Shown here: piece after piece, positions 234 through 54,888 of the stretch
How positions within the stretch are numbered: the first letter of the stretch is position 1
Layout of the letters: each line of letters starts with the position of its first letter
From: Octopus vulgaris
Taxonomy: Eukaryota
Assembly (NCBI GenBank): GCA_951406725.2
Contig: OX597816.1
Location: 99,324,001 to 99,388,000 of the forward strand
DNA: 64,000 nucleotides
Direction of reading: 5' to 3'
Notes under the pieces: model-generated
Told to the model about the DNA's origin: nothing
Seen by the model: only the letters and a program-made list of their open reading frames with translations
The model's database searches: none
Program-made: the position numbers and the translations under genes

Positions 234-439
234 ATGGATGTGTACCTTTAAAGAATGGCCCTATAAACAGTGAACAATAAACAGTTCACGTATATTCCAT
301 TCGAAGTTGCGTTAGAACAAGTACAATACAGTTTACTTAAGTGTATTACTTCACTTTACTTTCAATATATTTCTCTTTATCATAGATAGAGATGTTGTAA
401 CTTTAATTCAAGAAAAAACACCTAGTAAGTGATACCAAA

Positions 440-935
440 GCTTTTCTTTTATCATCGCCATAATATCATTACATCATCATCATTGTTACTATCGTCATGT
501 ATTTGTCGCTATCATAATCAACCACTTCGAAATTCTTTGTTCTTGAATCTTGTTCTTATCCTCACCATCATCATCAGAAATAACTGCATCCAGAAGCATT
601 AGTATCTTCAGCTTAATCAATATCATTATCAGCATTATAGCGATTTTCATCATCATCATCATCATCATCCTTTTATCAATTTTGCGATTGTCATTCTCAT
701 CAGCAGCAGTATCTTCGAGATCATCGACATGACGATCAGTACCACACAGATATTCATAATTATCCTGATTAATCTCATCATCATTATAATCAGCAGCAGC
801 AGTAGCAGCAACATCCGCATTATCATCTTCGTCATCTTTGTCTTCGTCACTACCATCATCATCACTATCACCATCATCATCATCGTCGTCATCGTCGTCG
901 TAATCGTCCTCGTCGTCGACAACGTCGTCATCAGT
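440..935. repeat. Degenerate (ATC/GTC)n trinucleotide low-complexity tract
   Basis: Runs of atc/gtc/agc; accounts for the Ile/Val/Met-rich spurious ORFs. Confidence 0.85.
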
Positions 936-4771: not shown

Positions 4772-5738
4772 TAAAAGTATTGGATAAAGATCACCACATT
4801 CAAAAGCACGAAAGATAGAAACTGAGGCACCCTTGTCAGCGTTCAATAGTTTCAAGTTATATGTGTATGTATGTGTGTATGTATGTGTGTATGTATGTAT
4901 TTATGTATGTAACTATGTATGTATGTATGTATGTATGTATGTTGGGTTGTGTAAATATGTGTACGCGCGAATATGTATGCGGTTATCGCTTCACGTTATC
5001 GACCTTATCAATTGAATAGTTTCCATTTATTTTAAATTAGATACATTTCGGTCAACATTTTAGATTGATAGACAAAATCGACATTTAATCTTCAAGGAAT
5101 TGCCACACTTCAATATTCAGATTTCAAGTATGTTTGTTACTAGTGGATTGTGTGTGTGTGTATGTATGTGCATGCGGGCGCATGTGTATGTATCCATGCT
5201 CGCGTCTCTGTGTGTATGAGTGTATGTTTGTGATGATGTGATTGTTACCAATCACAGTGAAAATTTCAATAAAATTTACATTTAAGTATTTAGAAGATAA
5301 AAAAAAATAAATATCGCCGTTTGCTTTGAAATTGCATTATTATATATTTTGCGCTTTATATTTGTAGTTTTTGCTGTTACGAGTTTATAAACTCTTGATA
5401 ATAATAAAGTATTTTGGGATGAAATTGTTGCTGTATGATAAATACACACACACACACACGCATAATATATAGATCGTTAACCGTAAAAGAAAAGTAATCT
5501 GTTATTTTAAATATGAAAGTATTCCATCAAAAGGATACTTACAGGATTCATATTCCCATGAGGATCAAAAATTGATCCAAGTTATTCGATTAATGTCCAC
5601 AGCTGATGTTTTTTCTAGTTTTATTCATTTTTTATATTTAGAAACTTACGTTATAAAGTGACTGTTATCCATTTTTAATATTTTGTGCATCATAATACGT
5701 AATCTCATTCATGTGTGATTGCATAGTCGTATATGTGC

Positions 5739-5780
<42 letters not shown>

Positions 5781-6589
5781 TTCGTTTTTGGATCTGGTTT
5801 GCAAGATATTTTATGTGAGTTCGTGTGCTGCAGCATATTCTGTTGTGTCTGGGAAGAGTCATTTTCTTTTTGTACTATTTAATTAACACACTTACCGGTA
5901 AAAATTCCACATATTTCTTATTTTCATTTTCCTAAAATTTTCGTTGCGTCTTGCAACCATTTTAACAGTCTTTACTCTGTCCATTATTTACACTACGTTC
6001 CTTTTTTTTTTTTGTGCGCATGTGTGTGGGTCAGTGTGTGTGTTTATGTGTGTATGTGCGTGCCTATGCATGTATGTATGCATGTATGTGTATGTATATA
6101 TGTAATGAATGTGTGTGCATCTGTATCTATGTATTCTGCATATTCATGCGCTTTCGTGTCCGTGTTTGTCTGTTTTTTTATGTATGTGTGTGTGCGTGTG
6201 TTTGTATATGTATGCACCTCTGTCTCCTTGTGTATGAATGTGTGAGTGTGTTTTGCAACTATGTACCGTGTTTGTATGTATGGATGTGCATCTCCACATG
6301 TGTGGACACGTGTCTCCATATGTGTCCTTGTGTGAAGTAAATGGTGTGTGAATATATGGTTGTGTGTTTCAGTCTTCATTTGTGTATGTGTGCTTGTCTG
6401 TTTATATAACCTATGTACCTAGCCTTCTGTATGTTGATCTGTTTATTTTCATATCCATATGCTTACATACTTGTGCATATATATACACCAAACATACACA
6501 CAGACATACATCTAGCTACATAACAGCCCACTAACTATTCTACTCTACCTGTGTAAACTGTGCGTATGGAGGTATGATACCTACTATGT

Positions 6590-6925
6590 ATATTTCCTAT
6601 TTAGTGTTGGGCAAGTTTCATTTATAAGGACGTAATCCCGTATTTATCTGAGTGTTGGGTCTTTTGGGTTCTTGGATAAGGAGCGGATGTCAAGTTGACA
6701 CAGGTAGCATCCATGTTGGTCTTAAGCATGTTGGTAGAGTATGGAGGACTGTTTTTTGTCGTCATAGGGTCTCATATATTCATTTAGTCGTTCCGCAATG
6801 CTCCTAGATATCTCCCCTATGTATGTCACGTTCATGTGACAAGCACCTTCTATGCATCTTATGCTGTAAACTACATTTCTAGTTCTACAGTTAATGCCGT
6901 TTGCGTTCAGTCTTAGATTACTGAA
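6590..6925 (-). mobile_element. Penelope-like element, GIY-YIG endonuclease C-terminal relic
   Basis: End of ORF 6722..7420 reads [48 protein letters not shown], then ..LDIRSLS..LR*IRDYVLINETCPTLNRK; internal stops. Confidence 0.85.
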
Positions 6926-26990: not shown

Positions 26991-27293
26991 TGTGCAGCTT
27001 TGTTAATGATACTTTTGCACCCCAAGTATTCTTATTGTATTTCTTCATAGGTGTCGCTGGTTGTAGTATTATAGATTATTATTTTGTTTAATCGTTTGAC
27101 TTTTTTCATTATACTTTGCATTCGAAGTATTGCAGAGATATAGGTGCTAAAATATTGTAAAATTTGAAACATTAAACCACCTTTCTTATTTTCCAAGCAG
27201 GTGTTCACTACAAAGACAAAATAATTAATCCGTTCCTTCTTTAGATAGTTTGTTGTGCCTACTCACATATTGACATTGATACACACATACACA

Positions 27294-27325
<32 letters not shown>

Positions 27326-27512
27326 TACGCATACACACACATAAGTGAACTGATGTGAATTCGTGTGCTGAAACAAATTTTGTGTCTTGGGAGGTGCATT
27401 ACGCAAACAATAATAGACACACACACACTGGTTCAATGTCCGTCCTTGTTAGTCAATTTTGAATAAATAAATAATCGACTAAATAATCAAACGTTTGTTT
27501 AATGGGGAGCCA

Positions 27513-27545
27513 TGTCACTGATGAGGTCGCGAAAGGGCTTTGACA
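27513..27545 (+). ncRNA. Minimal type-I hammerhead ribozyme with intact catalytic core
   Basis: TGTCA-CTGATGA-G(GTCG)C-GAAA-G(GG)C-T-T-TGACA: perfect 5-bp stem I and all conserved core nucleotides; stems II and III minimal; predicted cut after 27540. Confidence 0.6.
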
Positions 27546-28627
27546 AACAACCTTTCGATTGTTTAACCAACACATTACGCAACTAACAATAACGAAATTA
27601 TATTGAACTAGTGCACGTATTTGAGGGTAATTTACATAATGACCCTTCCATGGCACTAGAAAAAACTTCTTTCCAAAAACGGTTAGTAACACCCTCATTT
27701 TCATAACATTGTTTTAAAAAGATAATTTGTTTAGAAAAGTGACCATAACACTTCGAAAACTGTCTTAATATATATATAAAAACGTACAAAAAAACAGAGT
27801 AGCTGAGGGAGGGGGGAGAGAGGGAGAGAAGAGTGTAGCATTTTGCTTGGAGCATTGTGAGAAAAGTTAAATGGATTAAGAAATAATGCGTTGAAACCAT
27901 TTCAATGCTTAAAAAGGATTAATAATTCATTAAATCTTTGTATTTTCGGGCGTAGCACTCATCTATAGAAATGATAGTGTACCAAGTAGCTACATATTTC
28001 AGTGAGGTGGAGTTAAATTCTCACACGTTTGGAATCGACGGCATTAATACCATATAAGTATTGGAGTCTATTTGAACGACTGTACCCCTTCACACAAGAT
28101 GTTGCGCTGTACGAATGGTAGACATTATTATTAGCCATCACATTGCACCTCAACTCGTCCTTAAATATTACATTTAGTTCTTTTTTTTTTTTTTGATAAT
28201 TTTATAAATGTTATGGCGTAAACTTTTTCATTATTCTTCGATTTTTCTATTGATATTGTTTGTGACTATTATTGAACTTGAATTTCCTTTTCCCGACTAA
28301 ACTCGCGCTGATAAAGATCTAGTTTTGTTGTTCTTGATTTAGCAGTTATTGTTTGACTTATTTCTTAGTTATTGATCTTTTACTTTCGTTAATTAGTTGT
28401 GTATTTCCCTATATAATTAAATAATAATAATAATAACAATAACAATGATGATGGTGGTGGTGGTGGTGGTGGTGGTGATAATTTCTTCGTTATCAGTATT
28501 ATTGTTGTTGTTCTTATGATTTATATTGTTATTTCTATTTTTTATTATAATACTGATGTTGAAGTGTCTATATTTTTATCGTGTGATTCCGTTTACTGTT
28601 TGTTGCCATTTTAAATTTACTTTGATA

Positions 28628-35812: not shown

Positions 35813-36905
35813 TTCAGTAGTTTTATTTTTATAGCGTGCTTTCACTTCACTACCGAGCGCAGCTCTGTAAGCCTTGAGTATGTGTTGTGATTTGTTGTGA
35901 TGCTCTGATGGTTACTGTATTGAAAGTGATTTCCTTAGGATGTGTGCAGTGGTCAGTAGCGCAATTTTCTGTATGTTATATGTGTTTGTAAGTCCTGGTG
36001 TTTTTGTTATGTATTTGTCTGAATATTTTTTATCATACCTAATGTGCCTACTATGATAGGAATTGTTTCTGTTTTTAGATTCCATATTCGAGTTACCTCT
36101 ATTTCCAGGTCTTTGTAATTTGAAAGTTTCTCCATTTCTTTTAGAGACACGTTGTCATCTGCTGGTATTGATGCATCAATTAGAAAGCATTTTTTCCTTC
36201 ATTATCTCTGACAACTATATCTGGCCTGTTGGCCTTAATTTCTCTGTGTGTATTAGCATATCCCAGAGTATGGTTGCTTTCTCGTTTTCTGTGACCTTTT
36301 CTGGTGTGTGCTTATACCATCTTTTTTCTGTTGTCATTCCATAATATTGGCATAGCTTCCAGTGTATGTAGGTCCTAACTCTGTCGTGCCAGTGAATATA
36401 TTCCTTCTTAGCCAGGGCTGGGCAGCCAGAGATAATAGGAATTATTGTTTCTCGTCCATCTCCACATATTCTGCAGTTACTTGTTATGTTTCTTTTCATT
36501 ATATGTTTTTGGTAATTCCTGGTGGGGAGGCTTTGGTCTTGTGCTCCGTCTCTGCTTTGAGTCCTGAGCTTCTCAACCATTGCTGGGGTTTTTCTTTGTC
36601 TATTTCTTTTGGATTTAGTTTTGTCCAGTATTTGCCATGAAGGTGCTTCTATTGCCATCGTTTTATCATGGTCCGTTGCTGTTCTAGTTTTAGCTTGGAT
36701 TTCATTTGTTTTATAGCTTATGTTTCTTCTTCTTCTTATTATTATTATTATTTGTTAGGTGGTATGGTTTCTTGTTTGTATTTGTCAGCTTCCTTAAATA
36801 CTGAGAAGTTTTTTTTTGTTTTGCTCGTGTTTTGCCGCTATTTGTATCAGTTTTTCTTGCTTCTGAAGTAAATATTTTTGCAGTCCTATGGTGGTTATTT
36901 TATAA
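35813..36905 (-). mobile_element. R4/Dong-clade non-LTR retrotransposon, 3' ~1.1 kb (zinc knuckle + restriction-like endonuclease)
   Basis: AQDQSLPTRNY..CRICGDGRETI..IISGCPALAKKEYIHWHDRV..IHWKLC..ILWD, then NRPDIVV..KCFLID..KLSNYKDLEIE..TAHILRK; (TAA)-type repeats at both ends. Confidence 0.9.
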
Positions 36906-43117: not shown

Positions 43118-44560
43118 ATATCATGTAGAAGAATAGTTCTACGGAATCCAGTTGACTGCAATGGCACTGACAAGGCTGTAGGTCAAGTGGACCATGATTG
43201 TTCATATAGAAAAAGCATTGCACGTCGTGCGTTTGTTTGACGATCTTTTTTAAGTAAACATATTTTGATTAGGAATATCAGTAAGTAATAGTCAAATGAA
43301 ATTACAAATGCTGTGTCCTGTCTGTGTTAGTGCTGAAATTCCGACAATATAGTGCAGGAATGGAAGGCAAATCAACAGTAAGTAATAGTCCAATGAAATT
43401 ACAGATGCTGTGTCCTGTCAATCGGATTAAGGTTTACTCGTCCTGTACGTGTGTATTATATAAAAACATATAATAAATGAAGTAGTAAAAAGATGGATCT
43501 CATATACGAATCTTTGTCCTTCAAGTAGCAATCCAGCAACTTTTAGTGTTTGGCCCTAACTTTTATTAATGGTCATATCAGAAGCAAAAAGCTAGACAAA
43601 TAGGTATATCATATAGAAGAATATCTTTACGACATCCAGGTGATTGCGATGGTACTGAAAAGACTACAGGTCAAATGGAACATCCATTTGTCACTGTTCC
43701 TTTTGACGTTTGAATAGGCGGTATATCGTAAATGAAGCTAGAAGAATAGCTATATCATATAGAAGAATAGCTTTATGGAATCCAGGTGGCTGTGCAATGG
43801 CACTGAAAAGGCCACAGGTGAAGTGGAAGACACATTTGTCATGGTTTCTTTTGACATTTGAATTGGACCGTATGTCCAAGGAGAATTGAAAGATTCAGTT
43901 TCGAATCTGAACAAGGGTGAGACTACGATTATAGATTTAGGTTTGTACGTGTTTCATCCTCGTTTTCTGCGGCACGTCGTTCGTTTGTTTGGTGTTCGTT
44001 TTTGACGGTCTTTTTTAAGTAGACATTTTTTGATAAGAAATATCAGTAAGTAATAATCAAATGATATTATAAATGCTGTGTCCTGTCTGTGTTAGTGCTG
44101 AAATTCCGACACCATGTTACAGGAATGGAAGGCAAGGCAACAATAAGTAATAGTCCAATAAGATTGCAGATGCTGTGTCCTGCCAGTCAGATTTAGGTTT
44201 ATTCTCCCTGTATGTGTGTATCATATAAGAGAAAAACATGTAATAATTGAAGTAGAAAAAAGAGAGATTTCATATACGAACTTCTGTTTGTTCTTCAAGT
44301 TGTAATCCAGCAACTTTTAGTGTTTGACACTGACTTACTGACTTTTATTAATGCTCATGGCAAAAGAAAGTGGGATAGGAAACTGTAAAGGCTTAAATTT
44401 GAATGGGACATTACATGGTATAACTGGTATGCGGGGAATGAAGATGGTGTCACGTTTACCACAACCAGTGAGAATATTTGCCTCGACACTCCAAGTCCTT
44501 GTAATAGCATTCGTGTATATGGAGGAAGATTTGGGTATCTTGTACCGGTACTGAGTAGTA
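43118..44560. mobile_element. Duplicated non-autonomous Helitron-derived mosaic with PIF1-helicase fragments
   Basis: Minus 44290-44500 VEANILTGCGKRDTIFIPRIPVIP..FKFKPLQFPIPLSFAMSINKSQ/QTLKVAGLQLEE; minus 43515-43585 MTINKS*GQTLKVAGLLLE; units 43118-43595 and 43752-44370 are homologous. Confidence 0.85.
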
Positions 44561-54717: not shown

Positions 54718-54888
54718 ATCCAAACATGAAAACACAACAACGCGAGGACGTGGAACAAGTATAGTGTTATTGGATACTCAGGAAAGGAAGGAAGGAAAGA
54801 AGGATTTAACGTTTCGAGCGGAGCTCTTCAGAAACATAGGAAAAGGAAAAATCCAAGGAAGGGAAGACGGAGGGAAAAAATCGCCAAC
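54718..54888 (-). mobile_element. Short non-coding repeat with hammerhead-like motif, in a (TA)n tract (copy 2)
   Basis: Homologous to 20395-20590; minus strand GTTT-CTGAA-GAGC-TCC-GCTC-GAAAC-GTT-AAAT. Confidence 0.8.

What the first reader, a model, noticed from the sequence alone, without database searches (positions are those of the whole stretch)
27513..27545. Ultra-minimal hammerhead ribozyme with a fully intact catalytic core
Seen: TGTCA-CUGAUGA-G(GUCG)C-GAAA-G(GG)C-U-U-UGACA, with all invariant core positions (C3-A9, G10.1:C11.1, G12-A15.1, U16.1, H17) enclosed by a perfect 5-bp stem I. Known: Penelope-like elements and animal retrozymes carry minimal type-I hammerheads whose very short, usually palindromic helix III works as a dimer. 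Inferred: this is such a motif, one substitution away from a palindromic helix III (AGCGCT). Its 1-bp stem II is unusually small, and no Penelope ORF is adjacent, so it may mark an uncharacterised non-autonomous element.
Basis: partly seen in the sequence, partly recalled or inferred. Interest (0 to 1): 0.7.

Follow-up and report, generated by a model that had tools for sequence, protein, structure and literature searches.

The report
Damaged Penelope hammerhead ribozyme copy
This is a worn copy of the self-cutting RNA motif carried by an old Penelope-like jumping gene; its unusually tiny size comes from a 10-base deletion that has hit several copies, so it is likely damage rather than a new minimal ribozyme design.

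Summary
The motif is at 27513-27545 as described and is not chance (0 hits in 300 simulated windows). It is not a designed ultra-minimal ribozyme. It lies in the terminal repeat (pLTR) of an old Penelope-like family. Most copies carry the published PLE minimal hammerhead: an extra G after A9 and a 5-bp helix II. The window copy lacks 10 nt between two CGAA repeats. The same deletion is in 4 of 100 listed copies. Five such copies are rejected as one clade (AU p=0.0001), though a shared origin with one of them is not excluded. The locus is a head-to-head pair of 5'-truncated pLTRs, as in 21 of 61 copies. Longer copies run upstream into a decayed RT-end/GIY-YIG ORF. Helix III derives from a GA loop, not AGCGCT. 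Cleavage in vivo is unlikely. A more interesting side result: a young relative (3,349 exact matches) has A9→C, and 0 of 30 copies start at the cut site.

The parts
27281..27341 (.). (CA)n microsatellite at the left edge of the insertion, likely the target site
   Evidence: microsatellite insertion bias of PLEs in PMC8557442 (passages)
27351..27504 (-). inverted, 5'-truncated copy of the family pLTR (3' part with part of the tail; no hammerhead)
   Evidence: 114 of 145 aligned letters identical to copy L035
27512..27656 (+). 5'-truncated pLTR copy that carries the hammerhead; head-to-head with the left arm; has further internal deletions; right end uncertain (alignment runs weakly to 27684)
   Evidence: 133 of 168 aligned letters identical to L035
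27513..27517 (+). helix I, 5' strand
   Evidence: compensated in a subfamily (AGTCA/TGACT) and in the young relative
27518..27524 (+). core C3-A9 (CUGAUGA)
27525..27530 (+). in the family register: extra G between A9 and 10.1, plus the 5' strand of helix II; in this copy only one G-C pair can form
27530..27533 (+). single CGAA left by a 10-nt deletion between two CGAA direct repeats (loop II and the 3' strand of helix II lost)
   Evidence: loop begins CGAA/TGAA in 25 of 54 full-length copies
27531..27540 (+). G12-A15.1, helix III remnant (G-GG-C), U16.1 and U17; predicted cut after 27540
   Evidence: family loop is GA
27541..27545 (+). helix I, 3' strand

Best explanation
The motif is the type-I minimal hammerhead of an old Penelope-like retrotransposon family, in a 5'-truncated head-to-head pLTR insertion, and its 1-bp helix II is a 10-nt deletion that likely arose by slippage between two CGAA repeats and likely leaves this copy inactive in the cell. 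Shown: family membership, the 5-bp helix II of the other copies, the deletion and its recurrence, the inverted insertion structure, and the link of the pLTR to an RT-end/GIY-YIG ORF. Inferred: the ancestral motif would cut, weakly, as a dimer of two pLTR copies in one transcript, with helix III extended across the two (A-U, G-C, tandem G·A, C-G, U-A). Also inferred: the window copy cannot do this, because it has no tandem partner, its helix II is gone, its helix-III loop is GG, and it is predicted to misfold.
For: Copies with a 5-bp helix II: 35 matches; 106 matches; of 100 listed, 96 are 35-38 nt long, 4 are exactly 10 nt shorter, none in between; 54 of 61 full length; extra G in 57 of 61. 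The helices covary among 22 hand-picked representatives of this and sister families: helix II 92.5% of cells paired; cells with a change on both sides 29 vs 14.1 shuffled, 0 of 500. Five short copies need 5 changes on the ML tree and are rejected as one clade, AU p=0.000135. The analogous helix-II collapse occurs twice among 30 shortened copies of the young relative. Inverted 5'-truncated copy directly upstream in 21 of 61 copies, the PLE arrangement of PMC8557442 Fig. 2. Upstream of the pLTR, copies L132 and L134 are collinear over 1,664 nt at 70.6% and match residues 884-1301 of an intact relative; GIY-YIG PF01541 E=0.0006 on a 35-aa piece, below the curated cut-off. Predicted probability of the hammerhead fold: about 1e-5 for the window monomer, 1.6e-2 for intact copy L034. 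Forced helix-III dimer: +1.7 kcal/mol for the window, -1.7 for the family. The copy is old: end branch 0.28, about 79% identical to a family copy.
Against: The tree is weak: 4 of 58 branches are starred and they force only 2 origins. Window + L056 (same 26-mer, same GG loop) are not rejected as a pair (p=0.29), nor window + L057 (p=0.14), so a short form may have been copied once or twice. Engineered miniribozymes with exactly a G10.1-C11.1 pair and a 4-nt linker cut well in vitro when helices I and III are long (PMC544870, passages). A natural 1-bp stem II has been reported once (PMC3088659, passage). The window copy keeps a canonical core, which only 11 of 61 aligned copies and 0 of 12 copies found without regard to the hammerhead do. 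Some helix-II covariation (C-G to U-A) could be paired CpG decay, and two of five measures do not beat the shuffles. Nearest-neighbour energies do not model the hammerhead core.
Confidence: 0.82

Rival explanations
1. The 10-nt-shorter form is a small, once-mobile sublineage: a natural miniribozyme (single G-C pair, GUCG linker) that still cut, or did not need to, and was retrotransposed as such.
For: Short form at 4 of 100 listed places, all exactly -10. Window and L056 share an identical 26-mer including the rarer GG loop (G at that place in 5 of 61). The pair is not rejected as a clade. Engineered miniribozymes work.
Against: All five short copies together are rejected. One sits in a starred subfamily of full-length copies. 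The window's best identities downstream of the hammerhead are to full-length copies (75% to L040 over 100 columns; 55% to L057). A direct repeat explains recurrence without selection.
Confidence: 0.12
2. The locus has been co-opted by the host as a functional self-cleaving element in a transcript.
For: Intact core in an old copy. The locus is present with 1 difference in two runs under different organism labels.
Against: It was picked because its core is intact. The flanks in the same runs are just as conserved. Misfolding is predicted alone and inside the long hairpin formed by the two arms. No dimer partner nearby.
Confidence: 0.03
3. Chance match, or the spacer of a MITE-like DNA transposon with terminal inverted repeats.
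For: The motif lies between long imperfect inverted repeats.
Against: 0 of 300 simulations give the descriptor. The arms are two copies of one unit of variable length, and that unit continues into a Penelope ORF.
Confidence: 0.02

Closest known systems
Minimal type-I hammerheads (min-HHR) in pLTRs of metazoan Penelope-like elements (Cervera and De la Pena 2014, PMC4209133; parts 1-2 of 4 read, supplements not seen)
   Same: Type I; 4-5-bp helix I; unpaired nucleotide between 9 and 10.1; G10.1-C11.1; paired 15.2-16.2 with a tiny loop; in a pLTR; mostly solitary truncated copies; U3-A8 variant in a sister family.
   Different: Family helix II is 5 bp (the paper gives 6-8 bp for its examples) and 1 bp in this copy. 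Loop III is GA (GG here), not a Watson-Crick palindrome. Most copies of the family have U3·G8.
C-terminal-endonuclease PLEs of the Neptune/Nematis type (Craig et al. 2021, PMC8557442; passages read)
   Same: [quoted passage not shown] Head-to-head 5'-truncated insertions with an optional tail.
   Different: No intact ORF of the focal family was found. Neptune versus Nematis was not resolved by a tree.
Engineered miniribozymes (PMC544870; passages read)
   Same: Helix II reduced to one G10.1-C11.1 pair with a 4-nt linker.
   Different: They act in trans with 12-nt arms forming stable helices I and III; here helix I is 5 bp and helix III 2 bp.
Small dimer-cleaving PLE hammerheads of Lunse, Weinberg and Breaker (RNA Biol; only the title seen, in a reference list; paper not held)
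   Same: By title: small PLE-associated hammerhead variants that cleave as dimers.
   Different: Could not check whether short-helix-II or A9 variants are already in that set.
Non-LTR retrozymes (bioRxiv 10.64898/2026.07.22.740005; part 1 of 5 read)
   Same: Type-I hammerhead related to PLE pLTRs.
   Different: Retrozymes are tandem arrays; this is a head-to-head pair with one hammerhead.

Membership tests
PLE minimal type-I hammerhead | Core C3-U4-G5-A6-N7-G8-A9, G12-A13-A14-A15.1, U16.1-H17 | tested here: met
   11 of 61 family copies keep it
PLE minimal type-I hammerhead | Short helix I (4-5 bp) | tested here: met
   5 bp; compensated among subfamilies
PLE minimal type-I hammerhead | Unpaired nucleotide between 9 and 10.1, and G10.1-C11.1 | tested here: met
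   extra G in 57 of 61 copies; in the window copy either G27525 or G27526 can pair with C27530
PLE minimal type-I hammerhead | Stable, long helix II | tested here: not met
   1 bp in the window copy. The family has 5 bp (54 of 61 copies full length), so the family is a member and this copy a damaged one.
PLE minimal type-I hammerhead | Palindromic 15.2-16.2 and loop 3 for dimer formation | tested here: inconclusive
   15.2-16.2 is G-C; loop is GG here, GA in the family; forced dimer +1.7 vs -1.7 kcal/mol
PLE minimal type-I hammerhead | Location in the pLTR of a PLE | tested here: met
PLE minimal type-I hammerhead | Self-cleavage as a dimer | not testable with these tools
   needs in vitro transcription
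EN+ Penelope-like element (Neptune/Nematis type) | Single ORF with RT and C-terminal GIY-YIG | tested here: met
   Family copies match residues 884-1301 of the intact relative. The relative gives RVT_1 E=5.5e-4 and GIY-YIG E=3.5e-4, both below Pfam cut-offs. L140 GIY-YIG is above cut-off.
EN+ Penelope-like element (Neptune/Nematis type) | CX2-5CxxC linker between RT and EN | tested here: inconclusive
   present in relative L136; only partly legible in decayed family copy L083
EN+ Penelope-like element (Neptune/Nematis type) | 5'-truncated insertions with an inverted copy at the 5' end | tested here: met
   window; 21 of 61 copies
EN+ Penelope-like element (Neptune/Nematis type) | RT phylogeny within a named clade | not tested
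   no reference RT set on hand
Non-LTR retrozyme | Head-to-tail tandem units, each with a hammerhead | tested here: not met
   no tandem array at the locus; one hammerhead only
Miniribozyme (engineered; works-like comparison only) | Single G10.1-C11.1 pair with a 4-nt linker | tested here: met
   against PMC544870
Miniribozyme (engineered; works-like comparison only) | Long stable helices I and III | tested here: not met
   5 bp and 2 bp

The most novel reading that the evidence does not exclude
In this Penelope clade the hammerhead fold is kept by compensatory changes while its 'invariant' catalytic core drifts in the source elements: U3·G8 in most of the old family, C3·A8 and U3-A8 in sister lineages, and A9→C in a young family with thousands of copies and intact pLTR-ORF-pLTR elements, none of whose 30 sampled copies begins at the cut site. 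Helix II also collapses again and again to a natural miniribozyme. Cutting would then be weak or dispensable and the fold would serve another role, such as protein binding or template switching. That gives a ready natural series for testing what PLE hammerheads are for.
Probability: 0.3. Interest if true: 0.6.

Novelty: new member of a known kind. Interest (0 to 1): 0.24.

Why it matters
As found, it is one decayed copy of a known kind of motif, and a caution: motif scans of old repeat copies return 'ultra-minimal' ribozymes made by hairpin deletion. The value lies in the family context. PMC8557442 (passage) says the function of hammerheads in EN+ PLEs is unclear and that they may merely parasitise them. 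A still-young family with a non-canonical A9 and a series of relatives with other core states makes that question testable with a few transcription assays.

Tried and rejected
Rfam: no hammerhead hit. The first two same-strand copies 3.2 kb apart (L035) enclose no ORF and are not a full element. MITE reading rejected. The 17-mer starting at C3 is single-copy, which first suggested a private deletion; one search showed other short copies. Of the 7 matches, two (L058, L059; 2 mismatches each) did not pass the score filter as short-form rows and are not in the tree. Eight duplicate loci were also skipped. RNA: no RNA holder listed; one possibly-RNA run gave no cover of the unique part; neither is evidence on expression, which stays open. 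PDB sequence search of the relative's ORF gave nothing useful. Pfam on the whole 1,312-aa ORF gave 0 families; the low-complexity-free part gave weak RT and GIY-YIG hits. Non-circularly permuted wiring, as in other notes on this genome, was not needed: the motif is plain type I. In alignment A2 six rows with a shorter loop III are 2 columns out of register on the 3' side, so the helix-I and helix-III counts are unreliable. Papers: the Lunse et al. dimer paper and a paper on stem-loop II shortening (recalled) are not held. The search 'hammerhead' + 'A9C' found 0 papers; 'hammerhead ribozyme' + 'octopus' found 5, 4 listed, none by title on this family. Supplements of PMC4209133 and the Lunse data set, not seen, may already list such variants.

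Full report
Observation. Rfam does not recognise it. Contigs of two public runs of one study span it with one other letter and no gap, so the short form is not an assembly error. The window is part of a 2.8-Gb genome in 227 contigs. Earlier notes call it octopus-like; I did not test that.

It is part of a repeat. A DNA search with 27350-27700 gave 47 matches from 40 scored of 637 candidates, at about 75-80% identity. Alignment showed two copies of one unit lying head to head in the window: 27351-27504 on the minus strand and 27512-27656 on the plus strand, each about 79% identical to copy L035. The hammerhead belongs to the plus-strand copy. In other copies the same motif reads helix I, core, an extra G, a 5-bp helix II with a 5-nt loop, GAAA, G-GA-C, U-U, helix I. 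Among 61 aligned copies, 54 have the full helix-II segment, 57 the extra G and 55 an A at the second loop-III place. Most of these 61 were found with patterns or queries covering the hammerhead, so they over-represent well-kept motifs; 12 were found through the 3' part only. This anatomy is the PLE min-HHR of Cervera and De la Pena (PMC4209133, parts 1-2 of 4 read).

The 1-bp helix II is a deletion. The window copy lacks 10 nt. In the family, CGAA stands at the end of the 5' strand of helix II and again 10 nt later at 11.1-14 (loop begins CGAA or TGAA in 25 of 54 full-length copies); the window keeps one CGAA. A variable-gap pattern gave 106 matches. Of the 100 listed, 96 are 35-38 nt long, 4 (the window among them) are exactly 10 nt shorter, and none is intermediate. 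A mismatch-tolerant search found 7 short candidates, of which 5 passed the filter into the alignment. On a tree built from the columns from G12 onward, these 5 need 5 changes and are rejected as one clade (AU p=0.000135); only 4 of 58 branches are starred and they force 2 origins. Pair tests are weaker: window + L056 p=0.29, window + L057 p=0.14, window + L054 p=0.04. L056 shares the whole 26-mer with the window, so one shared origin for that pair is open. In a young relative the analogous collapse occurs in 2 of 30 shortened copies, against at least 3,349 full-length ones. Slippage across a hairpin flanked by a short direct repeat is the likely cause (inference from general knowledge).

The carrier is a Penelope-like element. 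21 of 61 copies have an inverted, 5'-truncated copy directly upstream, the arrangement drawn for PLEs in PMC8557442 (passages). Two copies shared sequence further upstream. A search with it led to copies whose upstream part translates to a decayed GIY-YIG end (PF01541 E=0.0006, below cut-off). L132 and L134 are collinear for 1,664 nt at 70.6%, and family copies match residues 884-1301 of an intact relative, L136. L136 is pLTR - 1,312-aa ORF - pLTR, with a DKSG motif, weak RVT_1 and GIY-YIG hits and a CX4CxxC linker, which by PMC8557442 points to the Neptune/Nematis type. No intact ORF of the focal family was found.

How it likely worked, and whether it still does. The family's helices I and II and the 3-8 pair show two-sided changes across 22 chosen representatives (29 cells vs 14.1 shuffled, 0 of 500; two of five measures not above shuffles; part could be CpG decay). 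By the published model, such motifs cut slowly and only as dimers. The family's A-G-GA-C-U can pair with a second copy through tandem G·A pairs (-1.7 kcal/mol); the window's GG version gives +1.7 in the same geometry. The window monomer is predicted to adopt the hammerhead fold with probability about 1e-5, against 1.6e-2 for intact copy L034, and two monomers pair through a palindrome that covers G12 and A13. In context the two arms form a long hairpin around it. Against a flat 'dead': engineered miniribozymes with one G-C pair and a 4-nt linker cut fast when their arms are long (PMC544870, passages), and one natural 1-bp stem II is on record (PMC3088659, passage). The motif may therefore cut in a tube if helix III is supplied. 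Expression is untested.

A side result of more interest. The core is not constant in this clade. In the focal family 31 of 35 close matches have U3 with G8, and 5 of 61 aligned copies have C3 with A8. A sister family has U3-A8. The young family has C at position 9 in 95 of the first 100 listed of 3,349 exact matches (3 A, 2 T). Of 30 young copies picked by a pattern just 3' of the cut, all extend at least 30 nt upstream and none starts at the cut (several are the two halves of one insertion). This fits weak or dispensable cleavage, but also re-ligation or cutting that removes RNAs from the copied pool. I found no paper with 'hammerhead' and 'A9C', but the most relevant data set (Lunse et al.) was not available. 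The idea of testing copy starts came from earlier notes on other families.

Verdict. Real motif, known kind, damaged copy. Observation confirmed; interpretation partly supported; interest low for the finding itself and moderate for the core drift in its relatives.

Noticed in passing
L136 (G000:C1:59392500-59398000), hammerheads at 5029-5084 and 431-486, minus strand: Young, intact pLTR-ORF-pLTR Penelope-like element (1,312 aa, with a long Asn-rich insert) whose hammerhead has A9→C; 3,349 exact matches, C9 in 95 of the first 100; 0 of 30 copies start at the cut site.
   Followed up: partly
window 5780-6900, minus strand (GIY-YIG remnant 6587-6898; hammerhead remnant 5921-5975): A second, sister-family Penelope remnant in the window; its family has a U3-A8 core, a 5-bp helix II and a palindromic AAUU helix III.
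   Followed up: partly
focal family, e.g. L004, L016, L018, L024: Subfamily with compensated helix I (AGTCA/TGACT) but a C3·A8 mismatch in the core; most other copies have U3·G8.
   Followed up: partly
window 54812-54831, minus strand: Another hammerhead-like core (4-bp helix I, palindromic ACGU helix III), probably of a different PLE family.
   Followed up: no
L005, L007, L012, L029, L030, L035:3295-3335: Several other type-I hammerhead-like motifs with palindromic helix III lie in the flanks of fetched loci, so this genome holds many PLE hammerhead families.
   Followed up: no
window 36215-36754, minus strand: 179-aa open frame with a Cys/His motif; looks like the 3' end of a non-LTR retrotransposon ORF (recalled resemblance; no Pfam hit).
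   Followed up: partly
window 43589-43863: 148-bp unit repeated 1.9 times at 82% identity.
   Followed up: no
L035 (G000:C18:26460265 and 26463471): Two closely related family copies 3.2 kb apart on one strand with no ORF between them; probably a local duplication.
   Followed up: partly
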